NCBI GenBank assembly: GCA_000002445.1
Contig: CP000070.1
Coordinates: 1,792,001-1,856,000 of the forward strand
DNA length: 64,000 bases
Direction: 5' to 3'
Origin: Trypanosoma brucei
Taxonomy: Eukaryota
The notes below the pieces were generated by a model. That model was not told the DNA's origin, did no database searches, and was given only the letters and a program-made list of their open reading frames with translations. Each line of letters opens with the position of its first letter. Position 1 is the stretch's first letter. Below are positions 1 through 53,198 of this stretch, one piece after another. The position numbers were made by a program, and so were the translations under genes.

Positions 1-26
1 GAAACTAGCCGGTATATGGGGGAGAC

Positions 27-638
27 TCAAGGTCTCGGTGATGTTGCATTACCCCCTCCCACGGCGTCTGCCTCGTCGTCCTCATCTAATATTTCCCAAA
101 AGTGTTCTGAAGTACATTTCTCCTTCTCAGCCTTCTCCGCTTCTCTCTCAGCATTCCTACTCAACGTCTCGGCTCTGACGGTATACTCATGTGCATCTAG
201 AAAATTATCTTTCAACCCAAAAACGGCCTTCGTGGTGAGCACCGGTCTCTCGGGTGACTCCCCGCAGAACTTCACAACCTCAGTGAATAACTGACGGACA
301 CGCCTTTCACTATTCGACAGCTGCGGCTCAATGTACTTAATCGCCCTGTAGTACTGGTCCGCCAGCTTCTTTCGCTGTGCATTGACAGCGTCAACCAACT
401 CCTTCTGTTCATTCGACTTCACAATTGCGTCACATCTCTTCTTCACAACTTCAGCCCGCTCGGTGGCACGATCAAACCTGTGCCAAACATTAACTAAACG
501 CATGTTTAAGCGACCATACGAAACTTTCAACCCCAGGCAATACCGCAATCGGCGCGTCGTTGATAGAGCGACGCTCCCCCCCACATTGCACAGAATGGCA
601 ATGAAAAGGCACACGATGATTTTCTTCGCTAGATTCAT
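27..638 (-). CDS. Array member 1 (divergent): secreted protein with signal peptide MNLAKKIIVCLFIAILCNVGG and an ~180-aa Cys domain; HCGFW motif degenerated to FCGESPERPV; short acidic tail
   Basis: ORF 27..644 begins at GTG; the first ATG is at 638 (rc of cat 636-638). N-terminal hydrophobic signal peptide. Shares YC...C...YY(R/N)AIxYIE spacing with the paralogs at 1330, 2724, 4133, 8006 and 11709. TGA stop at 27-29. Confidence 0.75.
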   Translation of the reverse strand: MNLAKKIIVCLFIAILCNVGGSVALSTTRRLRYCLGLKVSYGRLNMRLVNVWHRFDRATERAEVVKKRCDAIVKSNEQKELVDAVNAQRKKLADQYYRAIKYIEPQLSNSERRVRQLFTEVVKFCGESPERPVLTTKAVFGLKDNFLDAHEYTVRAETLSRNAEREAEKAEKEKCTSEHFWEILDEDDEADAVGGGNATSPRP

Positions 639-644
639 TGTCAC

Positions 645-1047
645 ACACTTGTCTCTCCTATGTACCGCATGAAATTAAAAAAGAAAAACAGAATAATATC
701 TTTTGGGCAAGACAATACGAAAAGGGCAATGCAACATATGCAGGAGAGAGACAGTTTCCTCCTTCCCTCAAACAATAGACACACGCCACACTACAGTCTC
801 ACAATCACATTGGTTATTTAAAAGCACTCACAACACTGTAAAAGGGACAAAAAGTCACTTCAAGCAAAGCATTACTTAGCATGCGGTTACGTAGATATTC
901 ATATTGTTGCATGCCCTCCGTCACACGTTGGTACGTTGGAACATGCTAACATCAACCATCCGTCCGTCCACACACACACGCACATACCGCTATTTAAAGC
1001 GGTTTCTATACATCATTCCACTACCCAGATCCCTTATGGAAAAGTTA
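645..1047 (-). repeat. Conserved intergenic cassette copy 1: 3'UTR of the upstream paralog plus polypyrimidine tract/splice-acceptor region and short 5'UTR of the downstream paralog
   Basis: Near-identical to 2047-2420, 3438-3840, 7425-7700 and 11066-11460 (e.g. ...gaaaaacagaataatatcttttgggcaagacaatacg...ccgtcacacgttggtacgttggaacatgctaacatcaaccatccgtccgtccacacacacacgcaca...ccgctatttaaagcggtttctatacatcatt). Confidence 0.85.
661..700 (-). promoter_or_regulatory. Putative polypyrimidine tract and AG trans-splice acceptor region serving gene 27..638; predicted 5'UTR is very short
   Basis: Minus-strand reading gives ...ttctgtttttcttttttaatttcatgcggtacatAGgAGAGacaAGtgtgtgacaATG. The same arrangement sits upstream of the genes starting at 3431 and 11059. 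Kinetoplastid SL trans-splicing is inferred, not shown by the sequence. Confidence 0.45.
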
Positions 1048-1329
1048 GTCCTTCCACTTGATACAACGCACGACGTCTCCTTACGACGCAGTATGTTATG
1101 TACAGAAAATAAAATCAAGTAAAGGTGTAGAAAGAGTGACGAAAAAGTGGCATGGTAAGTTGTTATGTGTCCCGCATCAGTATCATTCGAACAGTCGCTG
1201 CCAATACCGCCAAGGATGTGACCAACATGGCACTCAAAATTCCACCAAGCACTCGCACGAACCAGTGCCACTGCCGTCCCATACGCTCGCGGTGAATTCC
1301 TATCCAGCCTACCCATTACTCGGAACCGA

Positions 1330-2013
1330 TCACTGCGAGGTTACATTTTCACCACCAACAGGCGGGGCAGTGCCTTCGGGCGTTTCGGATGCTGCGCTTC
1401 CATCGTTGGGCTCCCCACCTTCTTTCTCTGGCTTTTTGTCTCCCTCTCCGCCCAATGCGTTCTTCGATTCAGCGGAACTGCATTGTGTCGTTCTGGCTTT
1501 CACTTCGCTTGTCTCCGCTTCCCTTGACAGCACCTCCATCTTTGATACTAAAGATTTGGCCTTCCACAATTTGACTCTCGCTTCACGCTTGAGCTCAGAA
1601 GACACTGGCATGAAAGACGACCAGAAGCCGCAATGCTTTCTTATACCATTAAGCAACTCGCGCACGTCTTTCTTGTACTCAATTACCTGAGTCTCAATAT
1701 ATCTAATGGCATTGTATTGTTCCACTACTAATTTCACTTTATCCGAGTTAGCGTTTTCCGTCCCTTCCCTAGTTTCACTTAGTCTAGCAGCCTTCTCACA
1801 GGATGTCCTCACAACCTTTGCACGATCCCGGCTACCATGAAGGGCCTGAAGCAAGGCTGTGCAGCGGCCACTTATTGAATTAATTGATCTTCTCAGTGAA
1901 TCACAATATCTCTCTCGCACTACCCTCTTGCTGAATGCAATACCACCCTGCACACTACATAGCATAGAAACGACAAGGCACACGGTGGCACCCCGCGCAA
2001 GCCTCATGGCCAT
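1330..2013 (-). CDS. Array member 2: secreted Cys-domain protein with signal peptide MAMRLARGATVCLVVSMLCSVQGG and short Gly/Glu-rich tail
   Basis: ATG start confirmed at 2011-2013 (rc). Contains NSDKVKLVVEQYNAIRYIE and HCGFWSSFMPVSS motifs shared with paralogs. Confidence 0.8.
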   Translation of the reverse strand: MAMRLARGATVCLVVSMLCSVQGGIAFSKRVVRERYCDSLRRSINSISGRCTALLQALHGSRDRAKVVRTSCEKAARLSETREGTENANSDKVKLVVEQYNAIRYIETQVIEYKKDVRELLNGIRKHCGFWSSFMPVSSELKREARVKLWKAKSLVSKMEVLSREAETSEVKARTTQCSSAESKNALGGEGDKKPEKEGGEPNDGSAASETPEGTAPPVGGENVTSQ

Positions 2014-2046
2014 CCTTGAAGACTACTTCCACAAACGAAAGTTATA

Positions 2047-2555
2047 AAAAAAAAAAGAAAAACAGAATAATATCTTTTGGGCAAGACAATACGAAAAGGG
2101 CAATGCAACATATGCAGGAGAGAGACAGTTCCCTCCTTCCCTCAAACAATACACACACGCCACACTACAGTCTCAAAATCACATTGGTTATTTAAAAGCA
2201 CTCACAACACTGTAAAAGGGACAAAAAGTCACTTCAAGCAAAGCATTACTTAGCATGCGATTACGTAGATATTCATATTGTTGCATGCCCTCCGCCACAC
2301 GTTGGTACGTTGGAACATGCTAACATCAACCATCCGTCCGTCCACACACACACGCACACACCGCTATTTAAAGCAGTTTCTATACATCATTTCATTACCC
2401 AAATCCCTTATGGAAAAATAGAACCCGGAGCACGTCGCCGATCTGTTTATATCTTCAATAAAAAGAACAAAAAGTAAAGCATATTAATGTTATAAAGCAA
2501 TAAAGGAAAGCCACAGCACGCAGCTGAATAACTTGTTATCGTCTAAGAGACCATA
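2047..2555 (-). repeat. Conserved intergenic cassette copy 2, with a ~140-bp extension also found at 11461-11600
   Basis: Direct sequence identity to the other cassette copies. Extension ...ccggagcacgtcgccgatctgtt(t/c)atatcttcaataaaaagaacaaaaagtaaagcatattaatgttataaagcaataaaggaaa... is shared with 11461-11600. Confidence 0.85.
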
Positions 2556-2723
2556 ATTCTGCCACCACTGCCCATCGGGCTGAAAGAACAGATGAGTGTA
2601 GCAATACTCTCGGCGGCCACATTAAGAAACAGCCTGTCGCATCCCTTTAGTATTCAGCGTGCCTTACATTCTCCTCAGCAGCGTAGTTAGCATCCACCCC
2701 CATTCCAGTTATCACTTAATGGC

Positions 2724-3431
2724 TCAATTAGCAGATTCTGTGCCCGCATGTTCCTCACGGGTCTCGGACGAGGTAGTGGACGTGGCCCTATCGAGCTCAC
2801 GAGTTCCGACAGTTGGAGTGGTGTCTTGTAGTGAGTCACCGCCACTTTGCGGCTCCGCTTCACTTCTTGTGACTTCCTCCTGCGTATCTGTAGCTGGCGC
2901 GGAGCACCACTCCCCTGAAGCGTGAGAAGCATAAGATTTCGCATTTTCACTGAGTGATTCCACCTTCGATATCAATTCTGAAGCCTCCTCAAGGTGGCGT
3001 TTTGTGATATCACGCAGAAACGAGGATACGGGAGTGAAAGACAACCAGAAGCCGCAGTGCTTTCCCAAACCGATTAATAAATCGTGAATTTTTTTTTCGT
3101 AATCGGATATCTGCCGTTCATTATACATAATAGCGTTGTAGTACTCATTCACTAATTTCATTTTATCCGAGTTAGCAGCATCACTCACTTCCTTCTCTTC
3201 ACTTAACTTAACAAACCTTTCGCAATTTTCTTTAACATTCTCCACCTTATGAAGTGCATCCTCAAAAACATTCCAGGTGTCAGTAAACCGCTTCCCCAAT
3301 TCCTCAACTGTTGCCTTCAACTTTGTACAGTATCCCCCTTTTTTTTCAACCAGAGAAAAACCACGCACGCCCCCCACATTGCACAGAATGGCAATGAAAA
3401 GGCACACGATGATTTTCTTCGCTAGATTCAT
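2724..3431 (-). CDS. Array member 3: secreted Cys-domain protein with signal peptide MNLAKKIIVCLFIAILCNVGGVRGF and Ser/Thr/Glu-rich tail
   Basis: ORF starts at GTG 3437; first ATG at 3431. Motifs NSDKMKLVNEYYNAIMYNE and HCGFWLSFTPVSS. 5' end nucleotide-identical to the members starting at 638 and 11059. Confidence 0.8.
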   Translation of the reverse strand: MNLAKKIIVCLFIAILCNVGGVRGFSLVEKKGGYCTKLKATVEELGKRFTDTWNVFEDALHKVENVKENCERFVKLSEEKEVSDAANSDKMKLVNEYYNAIMYNERQISDYEKKIHDLLIGLGKHCGFWLSFTPVSSFLRDITKRHLEEASELISKVESLSENAKSYASHASGEWCSAPATDTQEEVTRSEAEPQSGGDSLQDTTPTVGTRELDRATSTTSSETREEHAGTESAN

Positions 3432-3437
3432 TGTCAC

Positions 3438-3840
3438 ACACTTGTCTCTCCTATGTACCGCATGAAATTAAAAAAGAAAAACAGAATAATATCTTTTGGG
3501 CAAGACAATACGGAAAGCACATGTACATCCATATGCAGGAGAAAGACAGTTTCCTCCTTCCCTCAAACAATAGACACACGCCACACTACAGTCTCAAAAT
3601 CACGTTGGGTATTTAAAAGCACTCACAACACTGTAAAAGGGACAAAAAGTCACTTCAAGCAAAGCATTACTTAGCATGCGATTACGTAGATATTCATATT
3701 GTTGCATGCCCTCCGTCACACGTTGGTACGTTGGAACATGCTAACATCAACCATCCGTCCGTCCACACACACACGCACACACCGCTATTTAAAGCGGTTT
3801 CTATACATCATTTCATCACCCAATTCCCTTATGGAAAAAT
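3438..3840 (-). repeat. Conserved intergenic cassette copy 3
   Basis: Identity to the other cassette copies. Confidence 0.85.
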
Positions 3841-4132
3841 AGAACGACCACCATGGCACTTTTCCCACAAGCTCATCAGGCCCAAAGGAAGAAAATGAAC
3901 AATCTACATATTGCGTTTAGTATAGTGTAAGTGAAAAATAAAGCAATAAAAACAACACTAGTGAACACCGACACGACCCTTCACCACATAAACAGGACCA
4001 TTACTATTAACACTGTTCTAACAAACTAACCGACCAATAATTGAGCGATAATCACACTATCTACGATAAAACAAAAAAGGTATTCTACCCAACAGCTGCT
4101 GGATCACTATAAACACATCATGCCCAAATCCA
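3841..4132 (-). repeat. 3' flank (putative 3'UTR) of the long-repeat gene, duplicated at 7700-8005
   Basis: ccaccatggcacttttcccacaagctcatcaggcccaaaggaagaaaat(g/a)aacaatcta...ggtattctacccaacagctgctggatca(c/t)tataaacacatcatgcccaaatccattattgcacag is shared by both copies. Confidence 0.8.
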
Positions 4133-7100
4133 TTATTGCACAGACACACCCTCGGCACCTACGGATCCAGCAGTTTCTTTAGGTCCAGCACTTCCCTCAG
4201 ATCCAGCACTTTCTTTGGGTCCAGCAGTTTCTTTGGGTCCAGCAGCTTCTTTAGGTCCAGCATTTCCCTCAGATCCAGCACTTCCCTCAGATCCAGCACT
4301 TTCTTTAGGTCCAGCACTTTCTTTAGGTCCAGCACTTCCCTCAGATCCAGCACCTTCTTTAGGTTCAGCAGTTTCTTTAGGTCCAACACTTTCCTCAGAT
4401 CCAGCACCTTCTTTAGGTCCAGCAGTTTCTTTGGGTCCAGCAGCTTCTTTAGGCCCAGCACTTCCCTCAGATCCAGCACTTTCTTCAGGTCCAGCAGTTT
4501 CTTTAGGTCCAGCACTTCCCTCAGATCCAGCACTTTCTTTAGGTCCAGCAGTTTCTTTAGGTCCAGCACTTTCCTCAGATCCAGCACTTTCTTTGGGTCC
4601 AGCAGTTTCTTTGGGTCCAGCACTTTCTTTAGGTCCAGCAGCTTCTTTAGGTCCAGCACTTCCCTCAGATCCAGCACCTTCTTTAGGTCCAGCAGCTTCT
4701 TTAGGTCCAGCACTTCCCTCAGATCCAGCACTTTCTTTGGGTCCAGCAGTTTCTTTGGGTCCAGCAGCTTCTTTAGGTCCAGCACTTCCCTCAGATCCAG
4801 CACTTTCTTTAGGTCCAGCAGTTTCTTTAGGTCCAGCACTTTCCTCAGATCCAGCACTTTCTTTAGGTCCAGCACTTTCTTTAGGTCCAGCACTTCCCTC
4901 AGATCCAGCACCTTCTTTAGGTTCAGCAGTTTCTTTAGGTCCAACACTTTCCTCAGATCCAGCACCTTCTTTAGGTCCAGCAGTTTCTTTGGGTCCAGCA
5001 GCTTCTTTAGGCCCAGCACTTCCCTCAGATCCAGCACTTTCTTTAGGTCCAGCAGTTTCTTTAGGTCCAGCACTTCCCTCAGATCCAGCACCTTCTTTAG
5101 GTTCAGCAGTTTCTTTAGGTCCAGCACTTCCCTCAGATCCAGCACTTTCTTTGGGTCCAGCACTTTCTTTGGGTCCAGCACTTTCTTTAGGTCCAGCACT
5201 TCCCTCAGATCCAGCACCTTCTTTAGGTTCAGCAGTTTCTTTAGGTCCAGCACTTTCTTTAGGTCCAGCACTTTCCTCAGATCCAGCACTTTCTTTGGGT
5301 CCAGCAGTTTCTTTGGGTCCAGGACTTTCTTTAGGTCCAGCAGTTTTTTTAGGTCCAGCACTTTCTTTAGGTCCAGCACTTCCCTCAGATCCAGCACTTT
5401 CTTTAGGTCCAGCACTTTCTTTAGGTCCAGCAGTTTTTTTAGGTCCAGCACTTTCTTTAGGTCCAGCACTTCCCTCAGATCCAGCACTTTCTTTAGGTCC
5501 AGCAGTTTCTTTAGGTCCAGCACTTTCCTCAGATCCGGCACTTTCTTTAGGTCCAGCAGCTTCTTTAGGTCCAGCACTTCCCTCAGATCCAGCACTTTCT
5601 TTAGGTCCAGCACTTTCTTTAGGTCCAGCAGTTTCTTTGGGTCCAGCAGCTTCTTTAGGTCCAGCACTTCCCTCAGATCCAGCACTTTCTTTAGGTCCAG
5701 CAGTTTCTTTAGGTCCAGCACTTTCCTCAGATCCAGCACTTTCTTTGGGTCCAGCAGTTTCTTTGGGTCCAGCACTTTCTTTAGGTCCAGCAGCTTCTTT
5801 AGGTCCAGCACTTCCCTCAGATCCAGCACCTTCTTTAGGTCCAGCAGCTTCTTTAGGTCCAGCACTTCCCTCAGATCCAGCACTTTCTTTGGGTCCAGCA
5901 GTTTCTTTGGGTCCAGCAGCTTCTTTAGGTCCAGCACTTCCCTCAGATCCAGCACTTTCTTTAGGTCCAGCAGTTTCTTTAGGTCCAGCACTTTCCTCAG
6001 ATCCAGCACTTTCTTTGGGTCCAGCAGTTTCTTTGGGTCCAGCAGTTTCTTTGGGTCCAGCAGTTTCTTTGGGTCCAGCAGCTTCTTTAGGTCCAGCACT
6101 TCCCTCAGATCCAGCACCTTCTTTAGGTCCAGCAGCTTCTTTAGGTCCAGCACTTCCCTCAGATCCAGCACTTTCTTTGGGTCCAGCATTTCCCTCAGAT
6201 CCAGCACTTCCCTCAGATCCAGCATTTCCCTCAGATCCAGCACTTCCCTCAGGTCCAGCACCTTCTTTAGGTCCAGCACTTTCTTTAGGTCCAGCACTTT
6301 CTTTGGGTCCAGCACTTCCCTCAGATCCAGCACTTCCCTCAGATCCAGCACTTTCTTTAGGTCCAGTACTTTCTTTGGGTCCGGCACTTTCTTTAGGTCC
6401 AGCACTTTCTTTAGGTCCAGTACTTTCTTTGGATCCAGCACTTTCTTTAGGTCCAGTACTTTCTTTGGGTCCAGCACTTCCCTCAGATCCAGCACTTCCC
6501 TCAGGTCCAGCACCTTCTTTAGGTCCAGCACTTTCTTTAGGTCCAGCACTTTCTTTAGGTCCAGCACTTCCCTCAGATCCAGCACTTCCCTCAGATCCAG
6601 CACTTTCTTTAGGTCCAGTACTTTCTTTGGGTCCGGCACTTTCTTTAGGTCCAGCACTTTCTTTAGGTCCAGCACTTTCCTCAGATCCAGCACCTTCTTT
6701 AGGGTCGACAAGACCCCCAGGCGTGACGGGGGTACCTTGCGTTTTGGGCGACTCTAAGGAAGTTGGACTGCTATTTTTTGTTTTGTTTGTCCTATTGACC
6801 TCTTTTTCGGTGGACATTTCGTCGGTTTCTGTGCCAGGATCAAGGAAAGTGCATATTCCCTCTTTTAGATTTTCCCCGTAATACCTGGCATCAAAACTAA
6901 GAGCCTCAATTCTTGCCGTAAGAAATTTGACCTGTAACAAATTGGTAGTTGTATACCGGTGTACCTCATCAGATAATAGCGTGAAAGACACCCAAAAGCC
7001 ACATTCTTTTTTAATGTTGCCAACCAATTCGTGTACCTTCTTTTCGTGGTCATCAACCTTGCGTTTTATAAGAAGGATGGCATCATTGTACCCATCCAGT

Positions 7101-7363
7101 ATCTTTATTCGCTCCCATGCAAAAGTACTCCTACCACTGGTGTCAAGTATCCTACAGTTAACAACCTCCTCCCTAACATTTACAAGTGAACGCTTGACGT
7201 CACGTTTTGCCTGCTCCAAACGATTATTAATATCAAATAAAAGACGCTTCATTCTTGCACAATATCTCGCTCTGCTCTCCCATCTATTAAAAAAACTGCT
7301 GGCATCAACAACATATGATGTATGCACCACAAAAAATAGCACAATACACCACAGAACATGCAT
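4133..7363 (-). CDS. Array member 4: secreted Cys-domain protein with signal peptide MHVLWCIVLFFVVHTSYVVDA, fused to ~850 aa of AGPKE[S/T/A]/AGSEGS 6-aa tandem repeats; C-terminus ...GSVGAEGVSVQ
   Basis: ORF 4133..7417 starts at GTG; first ATG at 7363. The N-terminal domain has the family C/ECGFWVSF pattern. The repeat frame is continuous with the N-terminal domain. No C-terminal hydrophobic segment. Confidence 0.8.
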   Translation of the reverse strand: MHVLWCIVLFFVVHTSYVVDASSFFNRWESRARYCARMKRLLFDINNRLEQAKRDVKRSLVNVREEVVNCRILDTSGRSTFAWERIKILDGYNDAILLIKRKVDDHEKKVHELVGNIKKECGFWVSFTLLSDEVHRYTTTNLLQVKFLTARIEALSFDARYYGENLKEGICTFLDPGTETDEMSTEKEVNRTNKTKNSSPTSLESPKTQGTPVTPGGLVDPKEGAGSEESAGPKESAGPKESAGPKESTGPKESAGSEGSAGSEGSAGPKESAGPKESAGPKEGAGPEGSAGSEGSAGPKESTGPKESAGSKESTGPKESAGPKESAGPKESTGPKESAGSEGSAGSEGSAGPKESAGPKESAGPKEGAGPEGSAGSEGNAGSEGSAGSEGNAGPKESAGSEGSAGPKEAAGPKEGAGSEGSAGPKEAAGPKETAGPKETAGPKETAGPKESAGSEESAGPKETAGPKESAGSEGSAGPKEAAGPKETAGPKESAGSEGSAGPKEAAGPKEGAGSEGSAGPKEAAGPKESAGPKETAGPKESAGSEESAGPKETAGPKESAGSEGSAGPKEAAGPKETAGPKESAGPKESAGSEGSAGPKEAAGPKESAGSEESAGPKETAGPKESAGSEGSAGPKESAGPKKTAGPKESAGPKESAGSEGSAGPKESAGPKKTAGPKESPGPKETAGPKESAGSEESAGPKESAGPKETAEPKEGAGSEGSAGPKESAGPKESAGPKESAGSEGSAGPKETAEPKEGAGSEGSAGPKETAGPKESAGSEGSAGPKEAAGPKETAGPKEGAGSEESVGPKETAEPKEGAGSEGSAGPKESAGPKESAGSEESAGPKETAGPKESAGSEGSAGPKEAAGPKETAGPKESAGSEGSAGPKEAAGPKEGAGSEGSAGPKEAAGPKESAGPKETAGPKESAGSEESAGPKETAGPKESAGSEGSAGPKETAGPEESAGSEGSAGPKEAAGPKETAGPKEGAGSEESVGPKETAEPKEGAGSEGSAGPKESAGPKESAGSEGSAGSEGNAGPKEAAGPKETAGPKESAGSEGSAGPKETAGSVGAEGVSVQ
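4160..6715 (-). repeat. Coding tandem repeat array, 18-nt period, ~140 units, two unit types (gctggacc(t/c)aaagaa(a/g)(g/c)t = AGPKE[S/T/A]; gctggatctgagggaagt = AGSEGS)
   Basis: Visible as ggtccagca(c/g)tttctttaggtccagca / cttccctcagatccagca iterations on the + strand. Open in all six frames, which produces the spurious ORFs 4136..6757, 4159..6711 and 4215..6881. Confidence 0.95.
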
Positions 7364-7424
7364 TTTCTTCAACGACAACAACACAAAAACAATAAAAAAA
7401 AACAATAGCACATGCACATGCAGG

Positions 7425-7700
7425 AGAGAGACAGTTCCCTCCTTCCCTCAAACAATAGACACACGCCACACTACAGTCTCAAAATCACGTTCAGCATTTA
7501 ACAGCATACACGACACTGTAAAAGGGACAAAAAGTCACTTCAAGCAAAGCATTACTTAGCATGCGGTTACGTAGATATTCATATTGTTGCATGCCCTCCG
7601 TCACACGTTGGTACGTTGGAACATGCTAACTCCCTTATCTCACGGCCGCTCCTCCCCACCGCTATTTAAAGCGGTCCTAACGTAATCTTATAACTAACCG
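7425..7700 (-). repeat. Conserved intergenic cassette copy 4 (partial/diverged; lacks the 5'-proximal ~60 bp)
   Basis: Shares ...gcaggagagagacagttccctccttccctcaaacaatagacacacgccacactacagtctca... and ...ccgtcacacgttggtacgttggaacatgctaac... with the other copies; the central part is diverged. Confidence 0.75.
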
Positions 7701-8005
7701 GATCCCTTATGGAAAAATAGAACGACCACCATGGCACTTTTCCCACAAGCTCATCAGGCCCAAAGGAAGAAAATAAACAATCTAAATGATATCAATAATA
7801 TAATGTAAAAATAAAGCAATAAAAACAACACTAGTGAACACCGACACGACCCTTCACCACATAAACAGGACCATTACTATTAACAGTGTTCTAACAAACT
7901 AACCGACCAATAATTGAGCGATAATCACACTATCTACGATAAAACAAAAAAGGTATTCTACCCAACAGCTGCTGGATCATTATAAACACATCATGCCCAA
8001 ATCCA
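7700..8005 (-). repeat. Second copy of the long-repeat-gene 3' flank (see 3841-4132)
   Basis: Near-identical to 3841-4132. Confidence 0.8.
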
Positions 8006-11000
8006 TTATTGCACAGACACACCCTCGGCACCTACGGATCCAGCACTTTCTTTAGGTCCAGCAGTTTCTTTGGGTCCAGCACTTTCTTTAGGTCCAGCAC
8101 TTCCCTCAGATCCAGCACTTTCTTTGGGTCCAGCAGTTTCTTTGGGTCCAGCACTTCCCTCAGATCCAGCACTTTCTTTAGGTCCAGCAGTTTCTTTAGG
8201 TCCAGCACTTTCCTCAGATCCGGCACTTTCTTTAGGTCCAGCACTTTCTTTAGGTCCAGCAGTTTCTTTGGGTCCAGCAGTTTCTTTGGGTCCAGCACTT
8301 CCCTCAGATCCAGCAGTTTCTTTGGGTCCAGCACTTCCCTCAGATCCAGCACCTTCTTTAGGTCCAGCATTTCCCTCAGATCCAGCACTTCCCTCAGATC
8401 CAGCACTTTCTTTAGGTCCAGCACTTCCCTCAGATCCGGCACTTTCTTTAGGTCCAGCACTTTCTTTGGGTCCAGCACTTTCTTTAGGTCCAGCATTTCC
8501 CTCAGATCCAGCACTTCCCTCAGATCCAGCACTTTCTTTAGGTCCAGCACTTTCTTTAGGTCCAGCACTTCCCTCAGATCCAGCACCTTCTTTAGGTCCA
8601 GCACTTTCTTTAGGTCCAGCAGCTTCTTTAGGTCCAGCACTTTCTTTAGGTCCAGCAGTTTCTTTAGGTCCAGCACTTTCCTCAGATCCGGCACTTTCTT
8701 TAGGTCCAGCACTTTCTTTGGGTCCGGCACTTTCTTTAGGTCCAGCAGCTTCTTTAGGTCCAGCACTTTCCTCAGATCCGGCACTTTCTTTAGGTCCAGC
8801 ACTTTCCTCAGATCCAGCAGCTTCTTTAGGTCCAGCACTTTCCTCAGATCCAGCAGTTTCTTTAGGTTCAGCACTTTCTTTAGGTCCAGCACTTTCCTCA
8901 GATCCGGCACTTTCTTTAGGTCCAGCACTTTCTTTGGGTCCAGCACTTTCCTCAGATCCAGCAGCTTCTTTAGGTCCAGCACTTTCCTCAGATCCAGCAG
9001 TTTCTTTAGGTCCAGCACTTTCCTCAGATCCAGCAGTTTCTTTAGGTTCAGCACTTTCTTTAGGTCCAGCACTTTCTTTAGGTCCAGCACCTTCTTTAGG
9101 TCCAGCACTTTCTTTAGGTCCAGCACTTTCTTTAGGTCCAGCACCTTCTTTAGGTCCAGCACTTTCCTCAGATCCAGCAGTTTCTTTAGGTTCAGCACTT
9201 TCTTTAGGTCCAGCACTTTCTTTAGGTCCAGCAGCTTCTTTAGGTCCAGCACTTTCTTTAGGTCCAGCACCTTCTTTAGGTCCAGTACTTTCTTTAGGTC
9301 CAGCACTTTCTTTAGGTCCAGCACCTTCTTTAGGTCCAGCACTTTCTTTAGGTCCAGCAGCTTCTTTAGGTCCAGCAGCTTCTTTAGGTCCAGCACTTCC
9401 CTCAGATCCAGCACCTTCTTTAGGTCCAGCATTTCCCTCAGATCCAGCATTTCCCCCAGATCCAGCACTTTCTTTGGGTCCAGCATTTCCCTCAGATCCA
9501 GCATTTCCCCCAGATCCAGCACTTTCTTTGGGTCCAGCACTTTCCTCAGATCCAGCAGCTTCTTTAGGTCCAGCACTTTCTTTAGGTCCAGCACTTTCTT
9601 TAGGTCCAGCAGCTTCTTTAGGTCCAGCAGCTTCTTTAGGTCCAGCACTTCCCTCAGATCCAGCACCTTCTTTAGGTCCAGCATTTCCCTCAGATCCAGC
9701 ATTTCCCCCAGATCCAGCACTTTCTTTGGGTCCAGCATTTCCCTCAGATCCAGCATTTCCCCCAGATCCAGCACTTTCTTTGGGTCCAGCACTTTCTTTA
9801 GGTCCAGCACTTTCTTTAGGTCCAGCACTTTCTTTAGGTCCAGCAGCTTCTTTAGGTCCAGCATTTCCCTCAGATCCAGCAGCTTCTTTAGGTCCAGCAC
9901 TTTCCTCAGATCCAGCACCTTCTTTAGGTTCAGCACTTTCTTTAGGTCCAGCACTTTCTTTAGGTCCAGCAGCTTCTTTAGGTCCAGCATTTCCCTCAGA
10001 TCCAGCATTTCCCCCAGATCCAGCACTTTCCTCAGATCCGGCACTTTCTTTAGGTCCAGCACTTCCCTCAGATCCAGCAGCTTCTTTAGGTCCAGCACTT
10101 TCTTTGGGTCCAGCAGCTTCTTTAGGTCCAGCACTTCCCTCAGATCCAGCAGCTTCTTTAGGTCCAGCATTTCCCTCAGATCCAGCATTTCCCCCAGATC
10201 CAGCACTTTCTTTGGGTCCAGCATTTCCCTCAGATCCAGCAGTTTCTTTAGGTCCGGCAGTTTCTTTGGGTCCAGCACTTTCTTTAGGTCCAGCAGTTTC
10301 TTTAGGTCCAGCACTTTCCTCAGATCCAGCACTTTCTTTAGGTCCAGCAGCTTCTTTAGGTCCAGCACTTTCCTCAGATCCAGCACTTTCTTTGGGTCCA
10401 GCAGCTTCCTTGGTGGTGACCGTTTCTTTTGGCGACTGGGATGTCGCACCACTGCTTTTGGGTTCCTCTTGTTTTTTCTTTGCCTTTTCTTCCTCCTCCC
10501 CCGCCAATACATTCTCTGTCCCCACCAAGACGCATCTGTTTCTTGCGGCGGTATCGCTGTGATTTTTTGCACCAAGACTGAGTTTGTCTATCATTATCGT
10601 TAGGGATCTTGCTTCTAACAGTTTTTCTTTAACAGTTCTTTTGAATGACGATGTGAGTGGCATGAAAGACAACCAGAAGCCGCAGCCGTTCCATATTTCA
10701 CCAGTCAAAGTGTTGATCTTCCTTTCGCAATCACCGATGAGCAGTTCAATTTGCCTAATGGCACTGTAGCTCTCGTCTACTAACTTAAGTTTTTCTGAGT
10801 TGGTGGCGCCAGAAACGTCCTTGGCTTTCTTATGCTTCAAAATACCTTCGCATTCTGCTTTTACGGCTAGCGTGTTATTGAACGCACGGTCGAATACGTT
10901 CCATGACTCTGAAAATCGGTTGTTAACTTTGTTAATAACACTTTTGACCTTTTTACAATGAGCTGCTCTGCTTTCCCGCCTCTCGAAACCACGCACGCCC

Positions 11001-11059
11001 CCCACATTGCACAGAATGGCAATGAAAAGGCACACGATGATTTTCTTCGCTAGATTCAT
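8006..11059 (-). CDS. Array member 5: secreted Cys-domain protein with signal peptide MNLAKKIIVCLFIAILCNVGGVRGF, fused to ~790 aa of AGPKE[S/T/A]/AGSEGS/AGSGGN repeats; same C-terminus as member 4
   Basis: ORF starts at GTG 11065; first ATG at 11059. N-terminal domain carries NSEKLKLVDESYSAIRQIE and CGFWLSFMPLTSS. The last 28 nt of the CDS and the 3' flank are identical to member 4. Confidence 0.8.
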   Translation of the reverse strand: MNLAKKIIVCLFIAILCNVGGVRGFERRESRAAHCKKVKSVINKVNNRFSESWNVFDRAFNNTLAVKAECEGILKHKKAKDVSGATNSEKLKLVDESYSAIRQIELLIGDCERKINTLTGEIWNGCGFWLSFMPLTSSFKRTVKEKLLEARSLTIMIDKLSLGAKNHSDTAARNRCVLVGTENVLAGEEEEKAKKKQEEPKSSGATSQSPKETVTTKEAAGPKESAGSEESAGPKEAAGPKESAGSEESAGPKETAGPKESAGPKETAGPKETAGSEGNAGPKESAGSGGNAGSEGNAGPKEAAGSEGSAGPKEAAGPKESAGPKEAAGSEGSAGPKESAGSEESAGSGGNAGSEGNAGPKEAAGPKESAGPKESAEPKEGAGSEESAGPKEAAGSEGNAGPKEAAGPKESAGPKESAGPKESAGPKESAGSGGNAGSEGNAGPKESAGSGGNAGSEGNAGPKEGAGSEGSAGPKEAAGPKEAAGPKESAGPKESAGPKEAAGSEESAGPKESAGSGGNAGSEGNAGPKESAGSGGNAGSEGNAGPKEGAGSEGSAGPKEAAGPKEAAGPKESAGPKEGAGPKESAGPKESTGPKEGAGPKESAGPKEAAGPKESAGPKESAEPKETAGSEESAGPKEGAGPKESAGPKESAGPKEGAGPKESAGPKESAEPKETAGSEESAGPKETAGSEESAGPKEAAGSEESAGPKESAGPKESAGSEESAGPKESAEPKETAGSEESAGPKEAAGSEESAGPKESAGSEESAGPKEAAGPKESAGPKESAGPKESAGSEESAGPKETAGPKESAGPKEAAGPKESAGPKEGAGSEGSAGPKESAGPKESAGSEGSAGSEGNAGPKESAGPKESAGPKESAGSEGSAGPKESAGSEGSAGSEGNAGPKEGAGSEGSAGPKETAGSEGSAGPKETAGPKETAGPKESAGPKESAGSEESAGPKETAGPKESAGSEGSAGPKETAGPKESAGSEGSAGPKESAGPKETAGPKESAGSVGAEGVSVQ
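8033..10410 (-). repeat. Coding 18-nt tandem repeat array (second copy; different unit order and length from 4160-6715; includes GGN/EES variants)
   Basis: Same ggtccagca.../cttccctcagatccagca units. Spurious alternative-frame ORFs 8009..10603, 8032..10575 and 8070..10562. Confidence 0.95.
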
Positions 11060-11065
11060 TGTCAC

Positions 11066-11600
11066 ACACTTGTCTCTCCTATGTACCGCATGAAATTAAA
11101 AAAGAAAAACAGAATAATATCTTTTGGGCAAGACAATAGGGAAAGCACATGTACATCCATATGCAGGAGAAAGACAGTTTCCTCCTTCCCTCAAACAATA
11201 GACACACGCCACACTACAGTCTCACAATCACGTTGGGTATTTAAAAGCACTCACAACACTGTAAAAGGGACAAAAAGTCACTTCAAGCAAAGCATTACTT
11301 AGCATGCGATTACGTAGATATTCATATTGTTGCATGCCCTCCGTCACACGTTGGTACGTTGGAACATGCTAACATCAACCATCCGTCCGTCCACACACAC
11401 ACGCACACACCGCTATTTAAAGCAGTTTCTATACATCATTCCACTACCCAAATGTCCCATGCTTATCCGGAAGCCGGAGCACGTCGCCGATCTGTTCATA
11501 TCTTCAATAAAAAGAACAAAAAGTAAAGCATATTAATGTTATAAAGCAATAAAGGAAAACCACAGCACGCAGCTGAATAACTTGTTATCATCGAAGCAGC
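11066..11600 (-). repeat. Conserved intergenic cassette copy 5 plus the extension shared with 2420-2555
   Basis: Identity to 3438-3840 (core) and 2420-2555 (extension). Confidence 0.85.
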
Positions 11601-11708
11601 ATCTCAACCTACGTAGCCTTGAGCAAGACGAAGCAACATCTTCCATCGTCGTGTTCCCAATCAAATAAAATCCGTTGACTCCTTCTTACATTCAACTTGT
11701 CTCATGCT

Positions 11709-12515
11709 CTAATCCACCTCTGCCTGGGCCTCCTTCCCTACCGCAGGTTCAGCAACAACAGCAGGTTCCTCGTCGGCGGTTTTTTCCCCAAGACCTTCTT
11801 GGCTGCTATCGGTGTCACCTTTAGCGGTGTCAGTCGACCTCTTTTCTTCTCTCTGCTCATCCATACTTGTGGGTGATTCAGGAGATTCGGGCACGGGGCC
11901 ATCGGATGTTTCCTCGTTCTGTTTGCCGGAAGTGTCTTCACCAGCACCTGCCTCCTTCTCTCTGCGTTTATCCTCCACCGTGGAGCACTCATCATTCGCC
12001 GCATCAGCGGCATAGCTCGCCGCATCTCCACTAAGAGTTTCAATTTTCGACACCTTGCCTGTAGCTTCAGCCGTCGTCTCCTCAATGCTCCGTTTGAATG
12101 AAATGGTTACTGGCATGAAGGACAACCAAAACCCGCATCGGTCCTTTAGATACACCGTTAGTTTGTGTAAATCGCGCTCGTAGTTCCTAATCTCTGTTCC
12201 GACATACATGATCGCGTTGTAGTACTCATCTACAACTCTCTTCTTTCCGCTGTCTGCAACATCTGTTATCTCATCGTCGCTGACTTTCTTCACGTCCTCG
12301 TCGCACTTTCCCTTGACAACACTGGTTCGCTTGAGAGCAACTTCAAACGTGTGCCATGCGTTTGCATAGCGGGTATTAATGGCCCGAACTGATTTGGCCA
12401 CTGTAGTACAGTATTCTGAGCGGCTTATCCTTCCCCAATGAGAAGAGGACTTGCCTCCAATACTGCATAGCCCGGCCACGAGAATATATAGTGTTACGCC
12501 CCTTGCGAAAACCAT
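11709..12515 (-). CDS. Array member 6 (most upstream): secreted Cys-domain protein with signal peptide MVFARGVTLYILVAGLCSIGG and acidic Glu/Asp/Ser-rich tail
   Basis: ORF starts at TTG 12524; first ATG at 12515. Motifs VVDEYYNAIMYVGTE and RCGFWLSFMPVTIS. Has a different 5' flank from the other members (no cassette upstream). Confidence 0.75.
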   Translation of the reverse strand: MVFARGVTLYILVAGLCSIGGKSSSHWGRISRSEYCTTVAKSVRAINTRYANAWHTFEVALKRTSVVKGKCDEDVKKVSDDEITDVADSGKKRVVDEYYNAIMYVGTEIRNYERDLHKLTVYLKDRCGFWLSFMPVTISFKRSIEETTAEATGKVSKIETLSGDAASYAADAANDECSTVEDKRREKEAGAGEDTSGKQNEETSDGPVPESPESPTSMDEQREEKRSTDTAKGDTDSSQEGLGEKTADEEPAVVAEPAVGKEAQAEVD

Positions 12516-13098
12516 TATTTTCAATAGCGATCCTCTTTTTTCCGCCCCTCCTTTCCAGACCTAAAAAGACGACGGTGGGATGAAGAAGGGAAGCGAGACA
12601 AATGGAGGGACGCGTCCAAGCCACTAAAAGGCAATCCAGAAATGGAAACTTTAACAACACAAGTAATCAAAATAGGGGGGGGGCGTAGAAATCACCGGGT
12701 GAATAATTGATAAGGAAAAAAGAAAAACGGAAAATATACGGGTGGCCACCAGATACAATGCAGTTTGGGCACTTCATGCGCCACGCACCCTGACTCCCCT
12801 GCCACTGCGCACTAGATTTTCATCCCCGTGCCTCTGCACGGTGGATCACCACAGATCTGCAGCTGTCTAGATAGGGATACTCCTCAAACGGCGCCGTTTA
12901 GTGCATTAACAGACAAAAAAGGTAAAAAAGAGAAAAGAAAAGAAAAGTGCAGCCCCAGACAGAAATGACATAATCAAAACAAAAATATTTTCGTCGCTAC
13001 ACTCCACCGGAAGTGCCGCATGAAGAAGAAAACGGGGTGACAAGCACCGATGCAGGGGAGTCACACCTGTCACCCTACACTCAAGACTTATCCAACAT

Positions 13099-15792: not shown

Positions 15793-16850
15793 TGCACAAC
15801 AAAACCAAAAACAGAGCACGCACTACTCCAAAGTGGCGTGATATATGAATATATTTTTACAGTTAGTGTCCCTGTGATTGCGTCTCGGCGCCGCTGCTAC
15901 TGTTATTATTATTTACTCCTGGTGTTGACGCCTGCTTCCCACACAAACTTCCCCGGTAGCACGACAGGAACGAGCAAACGGACCCTTCCAGCGCACTCAA
16001 CGTTATGCAGTCAGCGCCGTTTACTGGCTCGGTCTCTTTTTTTTTTTTGCCCTCCGCCGCTTTAATTCCTAGAAAATCTTTACCACGTTTGATATGTATA
16101 TTATATATATATATATATAATATATGTATGTGTGCCTGTGTACAGGTGTACGTCCCGTTCGCAATTTATTTCGTCTTTTGGTCGCCGTATATTTTTTGTT
16201 TGCTACCGTCCTTGAGTCCCTTCCCTTCTCTTCCACCTTCGGCTAGTGTTGGATTCAGATACTTTTGTCACTTTCTGTGAGGCGAAAATGCGGGGTGATG
16301 GCGCCAACACGAGAAACACAAATATAGAATAGGAAAAAAGAAAACGACGCGCAGCAACACTGAATAAATTTTAACGTAAGGGTGAGACATTAACAAAAAA
16401 GAAGGAGCGTAACGAAGGGAAAAAGAAGAGAAAAAAAAAAACATCATGCAATTCGTTAGCCGGCCTGACCCAGTACTCACCTTTGCAGACGCACCCTCGC
16501 ACGCGCGAGCATATATAAATATATATAACCTCATCATTTATTTTCTTGTTCCGCATGCACGCCGAAGCGCATACACGGAGCCCTGGAAACGGAAGGTTCT
16601 ACTCGTTTTCACGCAAAAAGGCAAGTGCGGGCCGGAAGTACAGCGTCACGAGATTGCCTGAATTTGACCTCTCTCTATTAACGGTCCGCAAGGCCGCGCC
16701 ACCACAGCAACGCTCCTCTTCCTTCCTTTATTTTTTTTCTTTTGTCCATATTGTGCTCAACCCTATTTAACACCTTATTTTCGTCTGTGATCTGCCAAGA
16801 ATATCACCATTGGCGGCGCACTGCACTTCCCCCTGTAATGCAACCGCGCC

Positions 16851-53112: not shown

Positions 53113-53170
53113 GACAAGCGCGGTCAAACCGTGCACTCTCTGCTTGGCTCTTCCTTCTTGATATTTTTTC

Positions 53171-53198
53171 TTATATATATATATATATATATATATAT
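53171..53198. repeat. (TA)n microsatellite just upstream of the kinase gene
   Basis: tatatatatata run. Other (TA)n runs at ~16090-16116, ~18870-18892, ~23428-23456, ~50186-50210 and ~50372-50392. Confidence 0.95.

What the first reader, a model, noticed from the sequence alone, without database searches (positions are those of the whole stretch)
560..11100. Nucleotide-identical signal-peptide exon plus 5' flank shared by three divergent paralogs, with the breakpoint at a G6-7 homopolymer (segmental gene conversion)
Members 1, 3 and 5 are identical at the DNA level from the upstream cassette through the signal-peptide codons ...tgcaatgtggggggg. Immediately after the G-run they diverge: SVALSTTRR vs VRGFSLVEKK vs VRGFERRESR; members 3 and 5 stay identical for 12 more nt. 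Likewise the last 28 nt of CDS plus ~300 bp of 3' flank are identical between members 4 and 5 (4133-4160 vs 8006-8033). So the 5' and 3' ends are homogenised while the mature-protein cores diversify. That is a mosaic pattern like antigen-family gene conversion, with a homopolymer tract at the junction.
Basis: seen in the sequence. Interest (0 to 1): 0.7.

Follow-up and report, generated by a model that had tools for sequence, protein, structure and literature searches.

The report
Shared signal-peptide module in trypanosome Fam10 array
In a six-gene array of Trypanosoma brucei surface-protein genes (Fam10/SGM1), three very old and very different paralogs carry the same upstream region and signal-peptide codons because recombination between copies keeps overwriting that 5' piece only; the pattern is real and is repeated in T. 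congolense, but it is a known kind of concerted evolution, not an antigen-variation system.

Summary
The window is T. b. brucei TREU927 chromosome 7. The array is Fam10/SGM1, Tb927.7.6550-6600, all on the minus strand. Members 1, 3 and 5 are 100% identical over the last ~130 nt before the break and 95-98% identical over ~470 nt. Identity then falls to 17-40% within 30 nt, at CDS nt 62 (m1 vs m3/m5) and nt 74 (m3 vs m5). The cores are only 24-39% identical in protein and saturated at third codon positions.

Inter-paralog recombination is supported. Orthologous upstream cassettes of TREU927 and T. b. gambiense differ by 3.0-7.6%, against 0.76% in unique DNA, and the differences are patches that match other cassettes. 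T. congolense homologues share a different, species-specific 5' module with the same abrupt break, while their cores pair with T. brucei cores (m1/P0013, NJ bootstrap 94%).

The signal-peptide/core junctions are fixed in all four assemblies. The cores are ~99% identical between subspecies, so they are invariant rather than diversifying. The G-run encodes a conserved Gly-Gly, is constant in length, is interrupted in gambiense m5 and is absent in T. congolense.

This is a new member of a known kind and is of modest interest.

The parts
27..638 (-). m1 CDS (inferred Tb927.7.6550; 203 aa), Fam10 member carrying the shared signal peptide MNLAKKIIVCLFIAILCNVGG
   Evidence: ORF. The protein is identical to P0002 / AAZ12716.1. 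Its core is the reciprocal best hit of T. congolense P0013.
571..1043 (-). 5' module of m1: intergenic cassette, polypyrimidine tract (677-691), presumed 5' UTR and the first 62 nt of CDS
   Evidence: 95.6-96.1% identical to the m3 and m5 modules, and 100% over the proximal ~130 nt.
576..582 (-). G7 run, codons GTG GGG GGG for Val-Gly-Gly at the end of the signal peptide; breakpoint between m1 and m3/m5
   Evidence: The length is the same in four assemblies.
1330..2013 (-). m2 CDS (inferred Tb927.7.6560; 227 aa), with its own signal peptide that is 65% nt identical to the shared one
   Evidence: The protein is identical to AAZ12717.1, in the P0008 cluster.
2051..2424 (-). Partial cassette upstream of m2; identity with the other cassettes ends in the poly-T tract at 2051-2065
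2724..3431 (-). m3 CDS = Tb927.7.6570 = ESP17 (235 aa), carrying the shared signal peptide
   Evidence: Exact match to XP_846277.1. ESP17 is given as Tb927.7.6570 and Fam10 in the supplement of PMC4587319.
3358..3838 (-). 5' module of m3 (cassette, 5' UTR and the first 74 nt of CDS); G6 run at 3370-3375; variant block A at 3512-3538
   Evidence: Block A is replaced by block B at the orthologous site in DAL972 and in T. b. equiperdum.
3935..4164 (-). 3' end of the m4 CDS plus proximal 3' flank, near-identical to that of m5
   Evidence: 2 mismatches in about 230 nt.
4133..7363 (-). m4 CDS (Tb927.7.6580): own signal peptide, three-helix core, then about 2.5 kb of 18-nt (KESAGP-type) repeats at 4166-6703
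   Evidence: TrypTag places the protein in the flagellar pocket lumen (PMC9981465).
7410..7723 (-). Partial cassette upstream of m4; identity ends at about 7418 ('CTCCTGCAT'); an m4-type patch lies at 7625-7660
   Evidence: The orthologous DAL972 copy differs by patches of the common type.
7808..8037 (-). 3' end of the m5 CDS plus proximal 3' flank, near-identical to that of m4
8006..11059 (-). m5 CDS (Tb927.7.6590): shared signal peptide, three-helix core, repeats at 8039-10411
10986..11458 (-). 5' module of m5; G6 run at 10998-11003; variant block A at 11140-11166
11709..12515 (-). m6 CDS = Tb927.7.6600 = SGM1.7 (268 aa), with its own signal peptide and no cassette upstream; first gene of the array
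   Evidence: Exact match to XP_846280.1. SGM1.7 is given as Tb927.7.6600 in PMC7007551. No cassette homology upstream.

Best explanation
The region is the Fam10/SGM1 tandem array of T. b. brucei TREU927. The genes encode secreted or surface-associated proteins with a signal peptide, a predicted three-helix-bundle core with four conserved Cys, and a disordered or repetitive tail.

The paralog cores are ancient and split before the T. brucei / T. congolense divergence. The intergenic cassettes are not ancient. Each holds the end of the upstream gene's 3' region, the polypyrimidine tract and splice-acceptor zone, and the short 5' UTR of the next gene. Homologous recombination between copies keeps homogenising these cassettes through short-patch gene conversion, possibly with unequal crossing-over as well.

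In three T. brucei members the homogenised tract runs through the start codon to the end of the signal peptide. It stops at the last island of inter-paralog homology, the ...TGC AAT GTG GGG GG(N) codons for the conserved C-N/S-V-G-G end of the signal peptide. Beyond that point the mature N-terminus is too diverged to support homologous exchange. A chimeric mature domain would presumably also be selected against.

Once set, the boundary reinforces itself. Everything 5' of it is repeatedly overwritten and everything 3' keeps diverging, which gives the step from 100% to ~45% identity.

Shown here: the abrupt mosaic; saturated cores; patch exchange within the cassettes between strains; a species-specific 5' module in two species over cores that pair across species.

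Inferred: the molecular route (conversion vs crossover, one-sided 'anchored' resolution); the position of the splice acceptor; and any selective benefit of a common 5' UTR and signal peptide, such as co-regulation in metacyclic forms.
For: Identification:
- m3 and m6 are exact matches to TREU927 XP_846277 and XP_846280.
- ESP17 = Tb927.7.6570 = Fam10. SGM1.7 = Tb927.7.6600.

Abrupt breakpoints lie at CDS nt 62 and nt 74, with chi2 259-296.

Cores against signal peptide:
- Third-codon-position identity is 27-44% in the cores. Signal-peptide nucleotide identity is 98-100%.
- The m1, m3 and m5 cores are no closer to each other than to m2 or m6.

Strain comparison:
- TREU927 vs DAL972 differ by 0.76% in 5,495 nt of unique sequence.
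- The orthologous cassettes differ by 3.0% (IG6-5), 4.1% (IG3-2), 7.6% (IG4-3) and 1.4% (IG2-1).
- Block A (ATGGATGTACATGTGCTTTCCG) and block B (ATG--TTGCATTGCCCTTTTCG) are swapped at IG4-3 and IG3-2 between TREU927 on one side and DAL972 plus T. b. equiperdum on the other.
- The m4-type patch GGGGAGGAGCGGCCGTGAGATAAGGGA sits in IG4-3 of DAL972. Patch differences are also seen at IG5-4.
- 176 of 351 informative site pairs fail the four-gamete test.

T. congolense:
- P0010, P0011, P0013 and P0014 share 134-400 nt of upstream sequence plus the first 49-76 nt of CDS at >=93-95% identity. Identity then drops to 18-47%.
- Each of their cores hits a T. brucei core better than any other T. congolense core.
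- m1 and P0013 are reciprocal best hits (124 and 114 bits, against 85 and 51 for the next hits), with NJ bootstrap 94%.

Precedent: partial gene conversion spanning start and stop codons, with UTRs more conserved than the CDS, is documented for T. brucei tandem arrays such as BARP (PMC1855330).
Against: - The signal-peptide/core junctions are identical in all four T. brucei-group assemblies. No exchange of the whole module onto a new core was caught in progress.
- The PHI test on the cassettes is only marginal, p = 0.04.
- Standard double-strand-break repair needs homology on both sides of a conversion tract. How the original tract ended in weakly homologous DNA is not explained by data.
- Strain evidence rests on few assemblies. 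DAL972 has two gaps and an apparently mis-oriented contig in the array. The T. b. equiperdum assembly breaks inside it.
- The T. congolense contigs are short (2-5 kb).
- Apart from the m1/P0013 pair, the core tree is poorly resolved, with bootstraps of 40% or less.
Confidence: 0.8

Rival explanations
1. Common descent plus purifying selection. On this view m1, m3 and m5 form a subfamily that inherited one signal peptide and 5' UTR. Selection for ER targeting, translation or RNA processing then kept the module unchanged while the mature domains drifted.
For: The shared block contains functional elements: a polypyrimidine tract, a presumed splice acceptor, the start codon and the signal peptide. 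The junction is fixed in all strains.
Against: - Identity covers every synonymous site of 21 codons and about 400 nt of non-coding DNA, while core third positions are saturated.
- The m1, m3 and m5 cores do not cluster.
- The ortholog of m1 in T. congolense carries a completely different signal peptide (14% identity), which it shares with other T. congolense paralogs.
- Cassettes differ between strains by patches that match paralogous cassettes.
Confidence: 0.05
2. Recent duplication followed by targeted hyper-diversification of the mature domain, in the manner of conotoxins or antigen families. The 5' and 3' ends would be the unchanged remains of young duplicates, and the cores would be evolving extremely fast under positive selection.
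For: The architecture of a conserved signal peptide with a divergent mature region resembles such families. The proteins are surface-exposed and immunogenic (PMC7007551).
Against: - The cores are 98.6-99.8% identical between TREU927 and DAL972, the same as neighbouring housekeeping DNA. There is no ongoing fast evolution.
- Divergence affects synonymous sites and the unalignable proximal 3' UTRs equally.
- The cores have cross-species counterparts in T. congolense.
Confidence: 0.03
3. Unequal crossing-over rather than non-reciprocal conversion. Chimeric genes would arise from misaligned exchange within the signal-peptide/cassette region, with gain and loss of array members. The breakpoint would be the crossover site, placed at the G-rich microhomology.
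For: - The array is tandem and carries 5-7 cassette copies that could misalign.
- Blocks A and B look reciprocally swapped between IG4-3 and IG3-2 in TREU927 compared with the other strains.
- A truncated seventh cassette lies downstream of m1 in DAL972 and in T. b. equiperdum.
- The nested breakpoints at nt 62 and nt 74 lie in the last stretch of homology.
Against: - Gene number and order are the same in TREU927 and DAL972.
- The patches exchanged between strains are short (about 20-60 nt) and internal to the cassettes, which is typical of conversion tracts.
- The present data cannot separate the two mechanisms for the founding events.
Confidence: 0.1
4. Assembly artefact. Repeats collapsed or cross-corrected during assembly would make the 5' modules look identical.
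For: The array is repeat-rich, and other assemblies show gaps and an apparent mis-orientation here.
Against: The same module and the same junctions appear in four independently produced T. brucei-group assemblies. The analogous pattern appears on four separate T. congolense contigs. The identical stretch is short enough, and close enough to unique core sequence, to be spanned by single Sanger reads.
Confidence: 0.02

Closest known systems
[quoted passage not shown]
   Same: These are tandem duplicates in a polycistron. The non-coding flanks are more conserved than the CDS (BARP: CDS 0.335 substitutions per site, against 0.073 and 0.038 for the UTRs). Conversion events span start or stop codons. 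The phylogenetic signal of the CDS conflicts with that of the UTRs.
   Different: Fam10 was not among the arrays analysed there; searches for Tb927.7.64.65 and .66 in the paper found nothing. Here the cores are far more diverged (24-39% amino-acid identity, predating speciation). The contrast between module and core is therefore extreme, and the tract boundary coincides with the end of the signal peptide in two species.
T. cruzi MASP / TcMUC surface gene families (Bartholomeu et al. 2009, PMC2691823)
   Same: Sequence encoding the signal peptide and the 5'/3' UTRs is highly conserved around a variable central region. Segmental gene conversion, and 'anchored' recombination with one site in a conserved flank, have been proposed. 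A chimera is documented that joins a TcMUCII signal peptide plus 20 residues to a MASP body.
   Different: MASP has hundreds of genes and pseudogenes, a conserved GPI-signal end and a truly hypervariable, mosaic centre. Fam10 has seven T. brucei members, no GPI or transmembrane signal, structured helical cores that are invariant between strains, and no mosaicism detected within the cores.
VSG switching by duplicative gene conversion between 70-bp repeats and the conserved 3' end (own knowledge; only touched on in PMC10089363)
   Same: Conserved flanks act as recombination substrates around a divergent coding core in T. brucei.
   Different: In VSG switching the core is what moves, into an expression site, to give antigenic variation. 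Here the flank and signal peptide are what is overwritten, and the cores stay in place and invariant. There are no 70-bp repeats in the region.
Fam10 / SGM1 protein family itself (Jackson 2013 cell-surface phylome; Gadelha 2015, PMC4587319; Vigneron 2020, PMC7007551)
   Same: The genes in the window are this family, shown by exact sequence matches.
   Different: The papers that could be read describe expression, localisation and vaccine tests. I found no description of the shared 5' module, of the conversion pattern or of the T. congolense parallel in the searchable literature.
Trypanosome three-helix-bundle surface proteins (GARP 2y44, MISP 5vtl, HpHbR 4e40, factor H receptor 6xz6)
   Same: The AlphaFold2 model of m3 has three long helices (residues 31-79, 85-125, 137-173) at pLDDT above 90 for most of them, followed by a disordered tail. 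These proteins are among the top Foldseek hits by probability.
   Different: No hit reaches E < 0.001 and TM-scores are 0.3-0.5. Long helical bundles match many unrelated proteins, so this is a resemblance and not a demonstrated relationship.

Membership tests
Fam10 / SGM1 family of T. brucei | Sequence identity with the named members on chromosome 7 (Tb927.7.6570 = ESP17, Tb927.7.6600 = SGM1.7) | tested here: met
   m3 equals XP_846277.1 and m6 equals XP_846280.1 exactly. The gene identifiers come from PMC4587319 and PMC7007551.
Fam10 / SGM1 family of T. brucei | N-terminal signal peptide, with no C-terminal transmembrane or GPI-addition signal | tested here: met
   All six proteins have a hydrophobic N-terminus. 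All six have hydrophilic, acidic or repeat C-termini. PMC10089363 says the same. No SignalP or GPI predictor was available, so this rests on reading the sequences.
Fam10 / SGM1 family of T. brucei | 'T. brucei spp.-specific', as annotated | tested here: not met
   The profile search finds T. congolense IL3000 homologues at E = 6e-32 to 2e-21. The family is therefore older than its label suggests.
Concerted evolution by segmental gene conversion among tandem paralogs | Abrupt rather than gradual change of identity along aligned paralogs | tested here: met
   Identity goes from 1.00 to 0.17-0.40 in adjacent 30-nt bins, chi2 259-296. The same is seen in T. congolense.
Concerted evolution by segmental gene conversion among tandem paralogs | Phylogenetic incongruence: the segment is homogeneous within a species while the rest of the gene keeps cross-species orthology | tested here: met
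   The signal peptide is 100% identical within T. brucei and 71-95% within T. congolense, but 10-19% between the species. The cores of m1 and P0013 are reciprocal best hits with 94% bootstrap.
Concerted evolution by segmental gene conversion among tandem paralogs | Evidence of recent transfer: orthologous copies in different strains differ by tracts that match paralogs | tested here: met
   3.0-7.6% divergence against a 0.76% baseline. Blocks A and B are swapped, and the m4-type patch is found in DAL972 IG4-3. This applies within the cassettes only, not at the signal-peptide/core junction.
Concerted evolution by segmental gene conversion among tandem paralogs | Significant formal recombination test (GARD, RDP, GENECONV or PHI) | tested here: inconclusive
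   My own PHI implementation gave p = 0.04, and 176 of 351 site pairs were incompatible. GARD and RDP were not available.
Antigenic-variation-type diversifying gene conversion (VSG- or MASP-like) | Variable cores: high between-strain polymorphism or mosaic cores drawn from a donor archive | tested here: not met
   The cores are 98.6-99.8% identical between TREU927 and DAL972. Only seven family members exist in T. brucei. No shared sub-blocks were found among the cores by self-BLAST, apart from one 75% match of 145 nt.
Homopolymer (slipped-strand) contingency locus | Tract length polymorphism between strains, switching the reading frame on and off | tested here: not met
   G7 in m1 and G6 in m3 are constant in every assembly that covers them (four for m1, three for m3), and always in frame. 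DAL972 m5 has GGGAGG, a synonymous change.

The most novel reading that the evidence does not exclude
The 5' UTR plus signal peptide may be a true exchangeable 'expression and targeting module' of this family. On this reading it has been independently re-homogenised over paralogs that predate speciation in both T. brucei and T. congolense. Selection would favour a common 5' end, for example for coordinated metacyclic-stage translation or ER entry. Alternatively, a recombination process anchored in the conserved cassette would resolve without homology at the signal-peptide boundary. If so, the array would be a small, tractable natural system for measuring one-sided (anchored) gene conversion in trypanosomes. 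That process is the one invoked, but hard to study, in mosaic VSG and MASP formation.
Probability: 0.2. Interest if true: 0.5.

Novelty: new member of a known kind. Interest (0 to 1): 0.35.

Why it matters

For that work it matters that the mature cores are old, distinct and stable between subspecies. It also matters that only the 5' module is shuffled. Primers, probes, RNAi fragments or tagging constructs aimed at the first ~75 nt or at the upstream region will hit three genes at once. Read mapping there is ambiguous for the same reason.

For evolutionary biology, the array is a compact example of concerted evolution confined to one module: two species, the same boundary, different sequences. 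It adds no new principle beyond what is described for other trypanosomatid surface-gene arrays.

Tried and rejected
- Pfam scan of the six N-terminal domains gave nothing above threshold.
- Rfam scan of 1-13500 gave no family, so the cassette is not a known RNA element.
- The cassette was searched in the rest of the window. It occurs only in the array, five copies.
- Exact-protein look-ups for the TREU927 m2, m3 and m6 proteins found nothing, because TREU927 is not in the gene-position index. The strain comparison therefore rests on DAL972, T. b. equiperdum and fragments of T. equiperdum OVI.
- The OVI contig L004 seemed to join m1 to an m5-type flank and to the 5' end of m4. I rejected it as evidence of reassortment. 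It is a 2.2-kb scaffold with an N-gap, and the join runs through repeated flank sequence.
- T. b. equiperdum IG4-3 carries an IG5-4-type patch, which could mean that m4 was deleted by unequal crossover. The assembly has a gap immediately upstream and unrelated sequence beyond it, so this was left open.
- A simple two-gene-unit duplication (signal-peptide-sharing genes at positions 1, 3 and 5) was considered. It was rejected as the cause of the identity because all cores are about equally and anciently diverged. The alternation itself has a chance probability of about 0.1.
- Foldseek against the PDB gave no significant match. The three-helix-bundle resemblance is only a lead.
- A frameshift relation between m1 and m3 across the G-run was examined by eye. 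None was found.


Full report
**What the region is**

Every long ORF in the window lies on the minus strand, which is the look of a trypanosomatid polycistron. The 235-aa protein of member 3 is an exact match to T. b. brucei TREU927 XP_846277.1. The 268-aa protein of member 6 is an exact match to XP_846280.1. The close relative P0001 is named 'Enriched in surface-labeled proteome protein 17'.

ESP17 is Tb927.7.6570, a member of 'Fam10' of the trypanosome cell-surface phylome (PMC4587319). Fam10 is also called SGM1. SGM1.7 is Tb927.7.6600, a non-variant protein on the surface of metacyclic forms that has been tested as a transmission-blocking antigen (PMC7007551). Tb927.7.6580 and Tb927.7.6590 were localised to the flagellar pocket lumen (PMC9981465). 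The family lacks a transmembrane or GPI signal (PMC10089363).

The six genes are therefore m1 to m6 = Tb927.7.6550 to Tb927.7.6600. The numbers 6550, 6560, 6580 and 6590 are inferred from the consecutive GenBank accessions. With ATG starts the coordinates are 27-638, 1330-2013, 2724-3431, 4133-7363, 8006-11059 and 11709-12515.

**Check of the observation**

Members 1, 3 and 5 share about 470 nt at 95.6-98.3% identity. The block is the intergenic cassette plus the first 62-74 nt of CDS. The last ~130 nt before the break are 100% identical in all three.

A maximum chi-square scan puts the break at CDS nt 62 for m1 against m3 or m5, and at nt 74 for m3 against m5. Identity is 1.00 in the four 30-nt bins before the break and 0.17-0.40 in the bin after it (chi2 259-296). 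The G7 in m1, the G6 in m3 and m5, and the quoted peptides are correct.

The cores are only 24-39% identical in protein. Their third-codon-position identity is 27-44%, which means synonymous sites are saturated. The signal-peptide codons are 98-100% identical in nucleotides.

On the 3' side, m4 and m5 share the last ~32 nt of CDS and ~195 nt of flank with two mismatches. Further out the similarity is patchy. They also share the entire array of 18-nt repeats.

- There are no exons here.
- The distal flank is 95-98% identical rather than identical.
- m2 and m4 also carry the distal cassette. Identity ends at a poly-T tract 38 nt upstream of the m2 ATG, and about 55 nt upstream of the m4 ATG.

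All intergenic regions are patchworks of shared blocks with different edges. The cassette occurs nowhere else in the window and matches no Rfam family.

**Is it recombination?**

Three lines of evidence say yes.

First, identity at every synonymous site of 21 codons and across ~400 nt of non-coding DNA, next to saturated cores, cannot be protein-level selection. The cores of m1, m3 and m5 are no closer to each other than to m2 or m6.

Second, I rebuilt the whole array of T. b. gambiense DAL972 from two loci and compared it with the window.
- Unique segments (cores, proximal 3' UTRs, the neighbouring gene) differ by 0.76%, or 42 of 5,495 nt.
- The orthologous cassettes differ by 3.0% (upstream of m5), 7.6% (upstream of m3), 4.1% (upstream of m2) and 1.4% (upstream of m1).
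- The differences are blocks that match other cassettes. A 22-nt variant 'A' and its alternative 'B' are exchanged between the cassettes flanking m3. TREU927 shows one arrangement, and DAL972 and T. b. equiperdum both show the other.
- An m4-type patch (window 7625-7660) sits upstream of m3 in DAL972.
- The m4 cassettes of the two strains also differ by such patches.
- Half of all informative site pairs fail the four-gamete test. My PHI test is only marginal, p = 0.04.

Third, a profile search of 1.8 billion representative proteins found a seventh T. brucei member and homologues in T. congolense IL3000.
- Four of the T. congolense proteins begin with the same MGPGSRFALLFLALMVCGV. This is unrelated to the T. 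brucei MNLAKKIIVCLFIAILCNVGG.
- At the DNA level their contigs share 134-400 nt of upstream sequence and the first 49-76 nt of CDS at >=93-95% identity. Identity then drops to 18-47%.
- With signal peptides removed, each of these four cores hits a T. brucei core better than any other T. congolense core.
- m1 and P0013 are reciprocal best hits by a wide margin (124 and 114 bits, against 85 and 51 for the next hits). They group with 94% bootstrap.

So the cores separated before the two species did, and the 5' module was homogenised afterwards, separately in each species. That is the signature of concerted evolution restricted to one segment.

**What is not supported**

The signal-peptide/core junctions are the same in TREU927, DAL972, T. 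b. equiperdum and T. equiperdum OVI. No reassortment of modules among cores is seen among these strains.

The cores are as conserved between subspecies as the flanking housekeeping gene. They are old invariant paralogs, not diversifying antigens.

The homopolymer is not special:
- Its length is constant in every assembly that covers it.
- It is interrupted by a synonymous G-to-A change in DAL972 m5.
- It encodes the Gly-Gly that ends most signal peptides of the family: m2 QGG, m6 IGG, the seventh member TGG, and T. congolense P0014 MGG.
- The T. congolense junctions have no G-run.

It is best seen as part of the last island of inter-paralog homology before the highly variable mature N-terminus. 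By the (-3,-1) rule, which I apply from general knowledge, it lies at the predicted signal-peptidase site.

**How it most likely works**

The cassette holds a polypyrimidine tract (for example window 3470-3484) followed by the first AG about 20 nt upstream of the ATG. By the general rules of trypanosome trans-splicing, the mature mRNAs of m1, m3 and m5 would share a short 5' UTR and the signal-peptide codons. The rest of the cassette would be the distal 3' region or spacer of the upstream gene. This is inference, since no RNA data were available.

Repeated short-tract conversion between cassettes lying 1.4-4 kb apart keeps them similar. A tract can run into the gene as far as homology lasts, which is to the end of the signal peptide.

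Founding events must have ended in weak homology. This is compatible with the 'anchored' model discussed for MASP and for Anaplasma MSP2, in which one end lies in a conserved flank and the other resolves with little or no homology (PMC2691823). It is also compatible with unequal crossing-over. After that, the boundary maintains itself.

Whether a common 5' module is selected, for example for co-expression in metacyclic forms (PMC7007551), or is a neutral by-product cannot be decided here.

**Comparison with what is known**

Jackson (2007, PMC1855330) documented partial gene conversion in 21 of 47 T. brucei tandem arrays. In that study UTRs were often more conserved than the CDS (the BARP array is one case), and events spanned start and stop codons. 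Fam10 was not among the arrays analysed.

T. cruzi MASP and TcMUC show conserved signal-peptide and UTR sequence around variable centres, and they include signal-peptide chimeras.

The present case is a further, unusually clean example, with a two-species parallel. I found no description of it in the searchable literature. It is a new member of a known kind.

**Side results**

An AlphaFold2 model of ESP17 gives a confident three-helix bundle with a disordered tail. Foldseek finds no significant PDB match, but it ranks trypanosome three-helix surface proteins among the most probable hits.

The DAL972 assembly holds the piece between its two gaps in inverted orientation, and its gene calls there are antisense ORFs of the repeats.

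**Verdict**

- Observation: confirmed.
- Interpretation: partly supported. Recombination is supported; antigen-like diversification and a homopolymer mechanism are not.
- Interest: 0.35.

Noticed in passing
L005/L003 (T. b. gambiense DAL972 chr 7, FN554970.1), merged coordinates 12318-19964: The 7.6-kb piece between two 100-N gaps is inverted relative to the rest of the array. It carries the m4 N-terminal domain, the m5-m4 intergenic region and repeats. The annotated 918-aa and 1080-aa genes there are ORFs on the strand opposite to the array. This is probably a scaffolding orientation error rather than a real inversion.
   Followed up: partly
window 4136-6881 and 8009-10603, + strand: The 18-nt repeat arrays of m4 and m5 are open in several frames on both strands, giving ORFs of 830-888 aa antisense to the real genes. 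This invites false gene calls.
   Followed up: partly
L003 10612-12100 and L001 13427-14150 (downstream of m1; outside the window, which starts 26 nt after the m1 stop): In DAL972 and in T. b. equiperdum, m1 is followed by an m4/m5-type 3' flank and a seventh, truncated cassette. In T. b. equiperdum a gene with an endonuclease/reverse-transcriptase-type domain (PF14529) comes next. In both assemblies a VSG gene lies about 9 kb downstream. The array may once have extended further.
   Followed up: partly
L001 1-9215 (T. b. equiperdum CM010678.1): This assembly has an N-gap directly upstream of the m3 cassette, and nothing matching m4, m5 or m6 beyond it. Its m3 cassette carries a patch typical of the TREU927 m4 cassette. 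This could be a deletion of m4 by unequal crossover or an assembly break.
   Followed up: partly
L008-L011 (T. congolense IL3000 contigs CAEQ01001252, CAEQ01000881, CAEQ01000446, CAEQ01000984): The family is annotated 'T. brucei spp.-specific' but has clear T. congolense homologues. At least one pair is in tandem: a P0012-like gene lies directly upstream of P0010 on L010. On L008 a 489-aa Pro/Glu/Lys repeat ORF lies upstream of P0013.
   Followed up: partly
window 660-879, 2016-2253, 3431-3674, 11081-11302, + strand: Short ORFs of 53-73 aa (MYRMKLKKKNRIISFGQDN..., MGKTIRKGQCNICRRETV...) recur on the non-coding strand of each cassette. They are most simply a by-product of the repeated cassette and were not tested as genes.
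   Followed up: no
window 2724-3431 (m3 / ESP17): The AlphaFold2 model shows three long helices (residues 31-79, 85-125, 137-173) with pLDDT above 90 over most of them, four conserved Cys in the family alignment, and a disordered tail from residue 183. This resembles other trypanosome three-helix surface proteins, but no PDB match is significant.
   Followed up: partly
window 3740-3782, 2319-2361, 11368-11410: Each full cassette contains an imperfect (TG)n stretch (GTGTGTGCGTGTGTGTGTGG), and several of the strain-specific patch differences border it. A possible link to conversion tract ends was not tested.
   Followed up: no
window 13099-64000: The rest of the window is one minus-strand polycistron of large genes. 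It includes a protein-kinase-like ORF at 50413-53211 and a 3030-aa ORF at 37565-46657. The DAL972 ortholog of the ORF at 16851-18506 carries an N6-adenine methyltransferase-like domain (PF10237). These genes are unrelated to the array.
   Followed up: no
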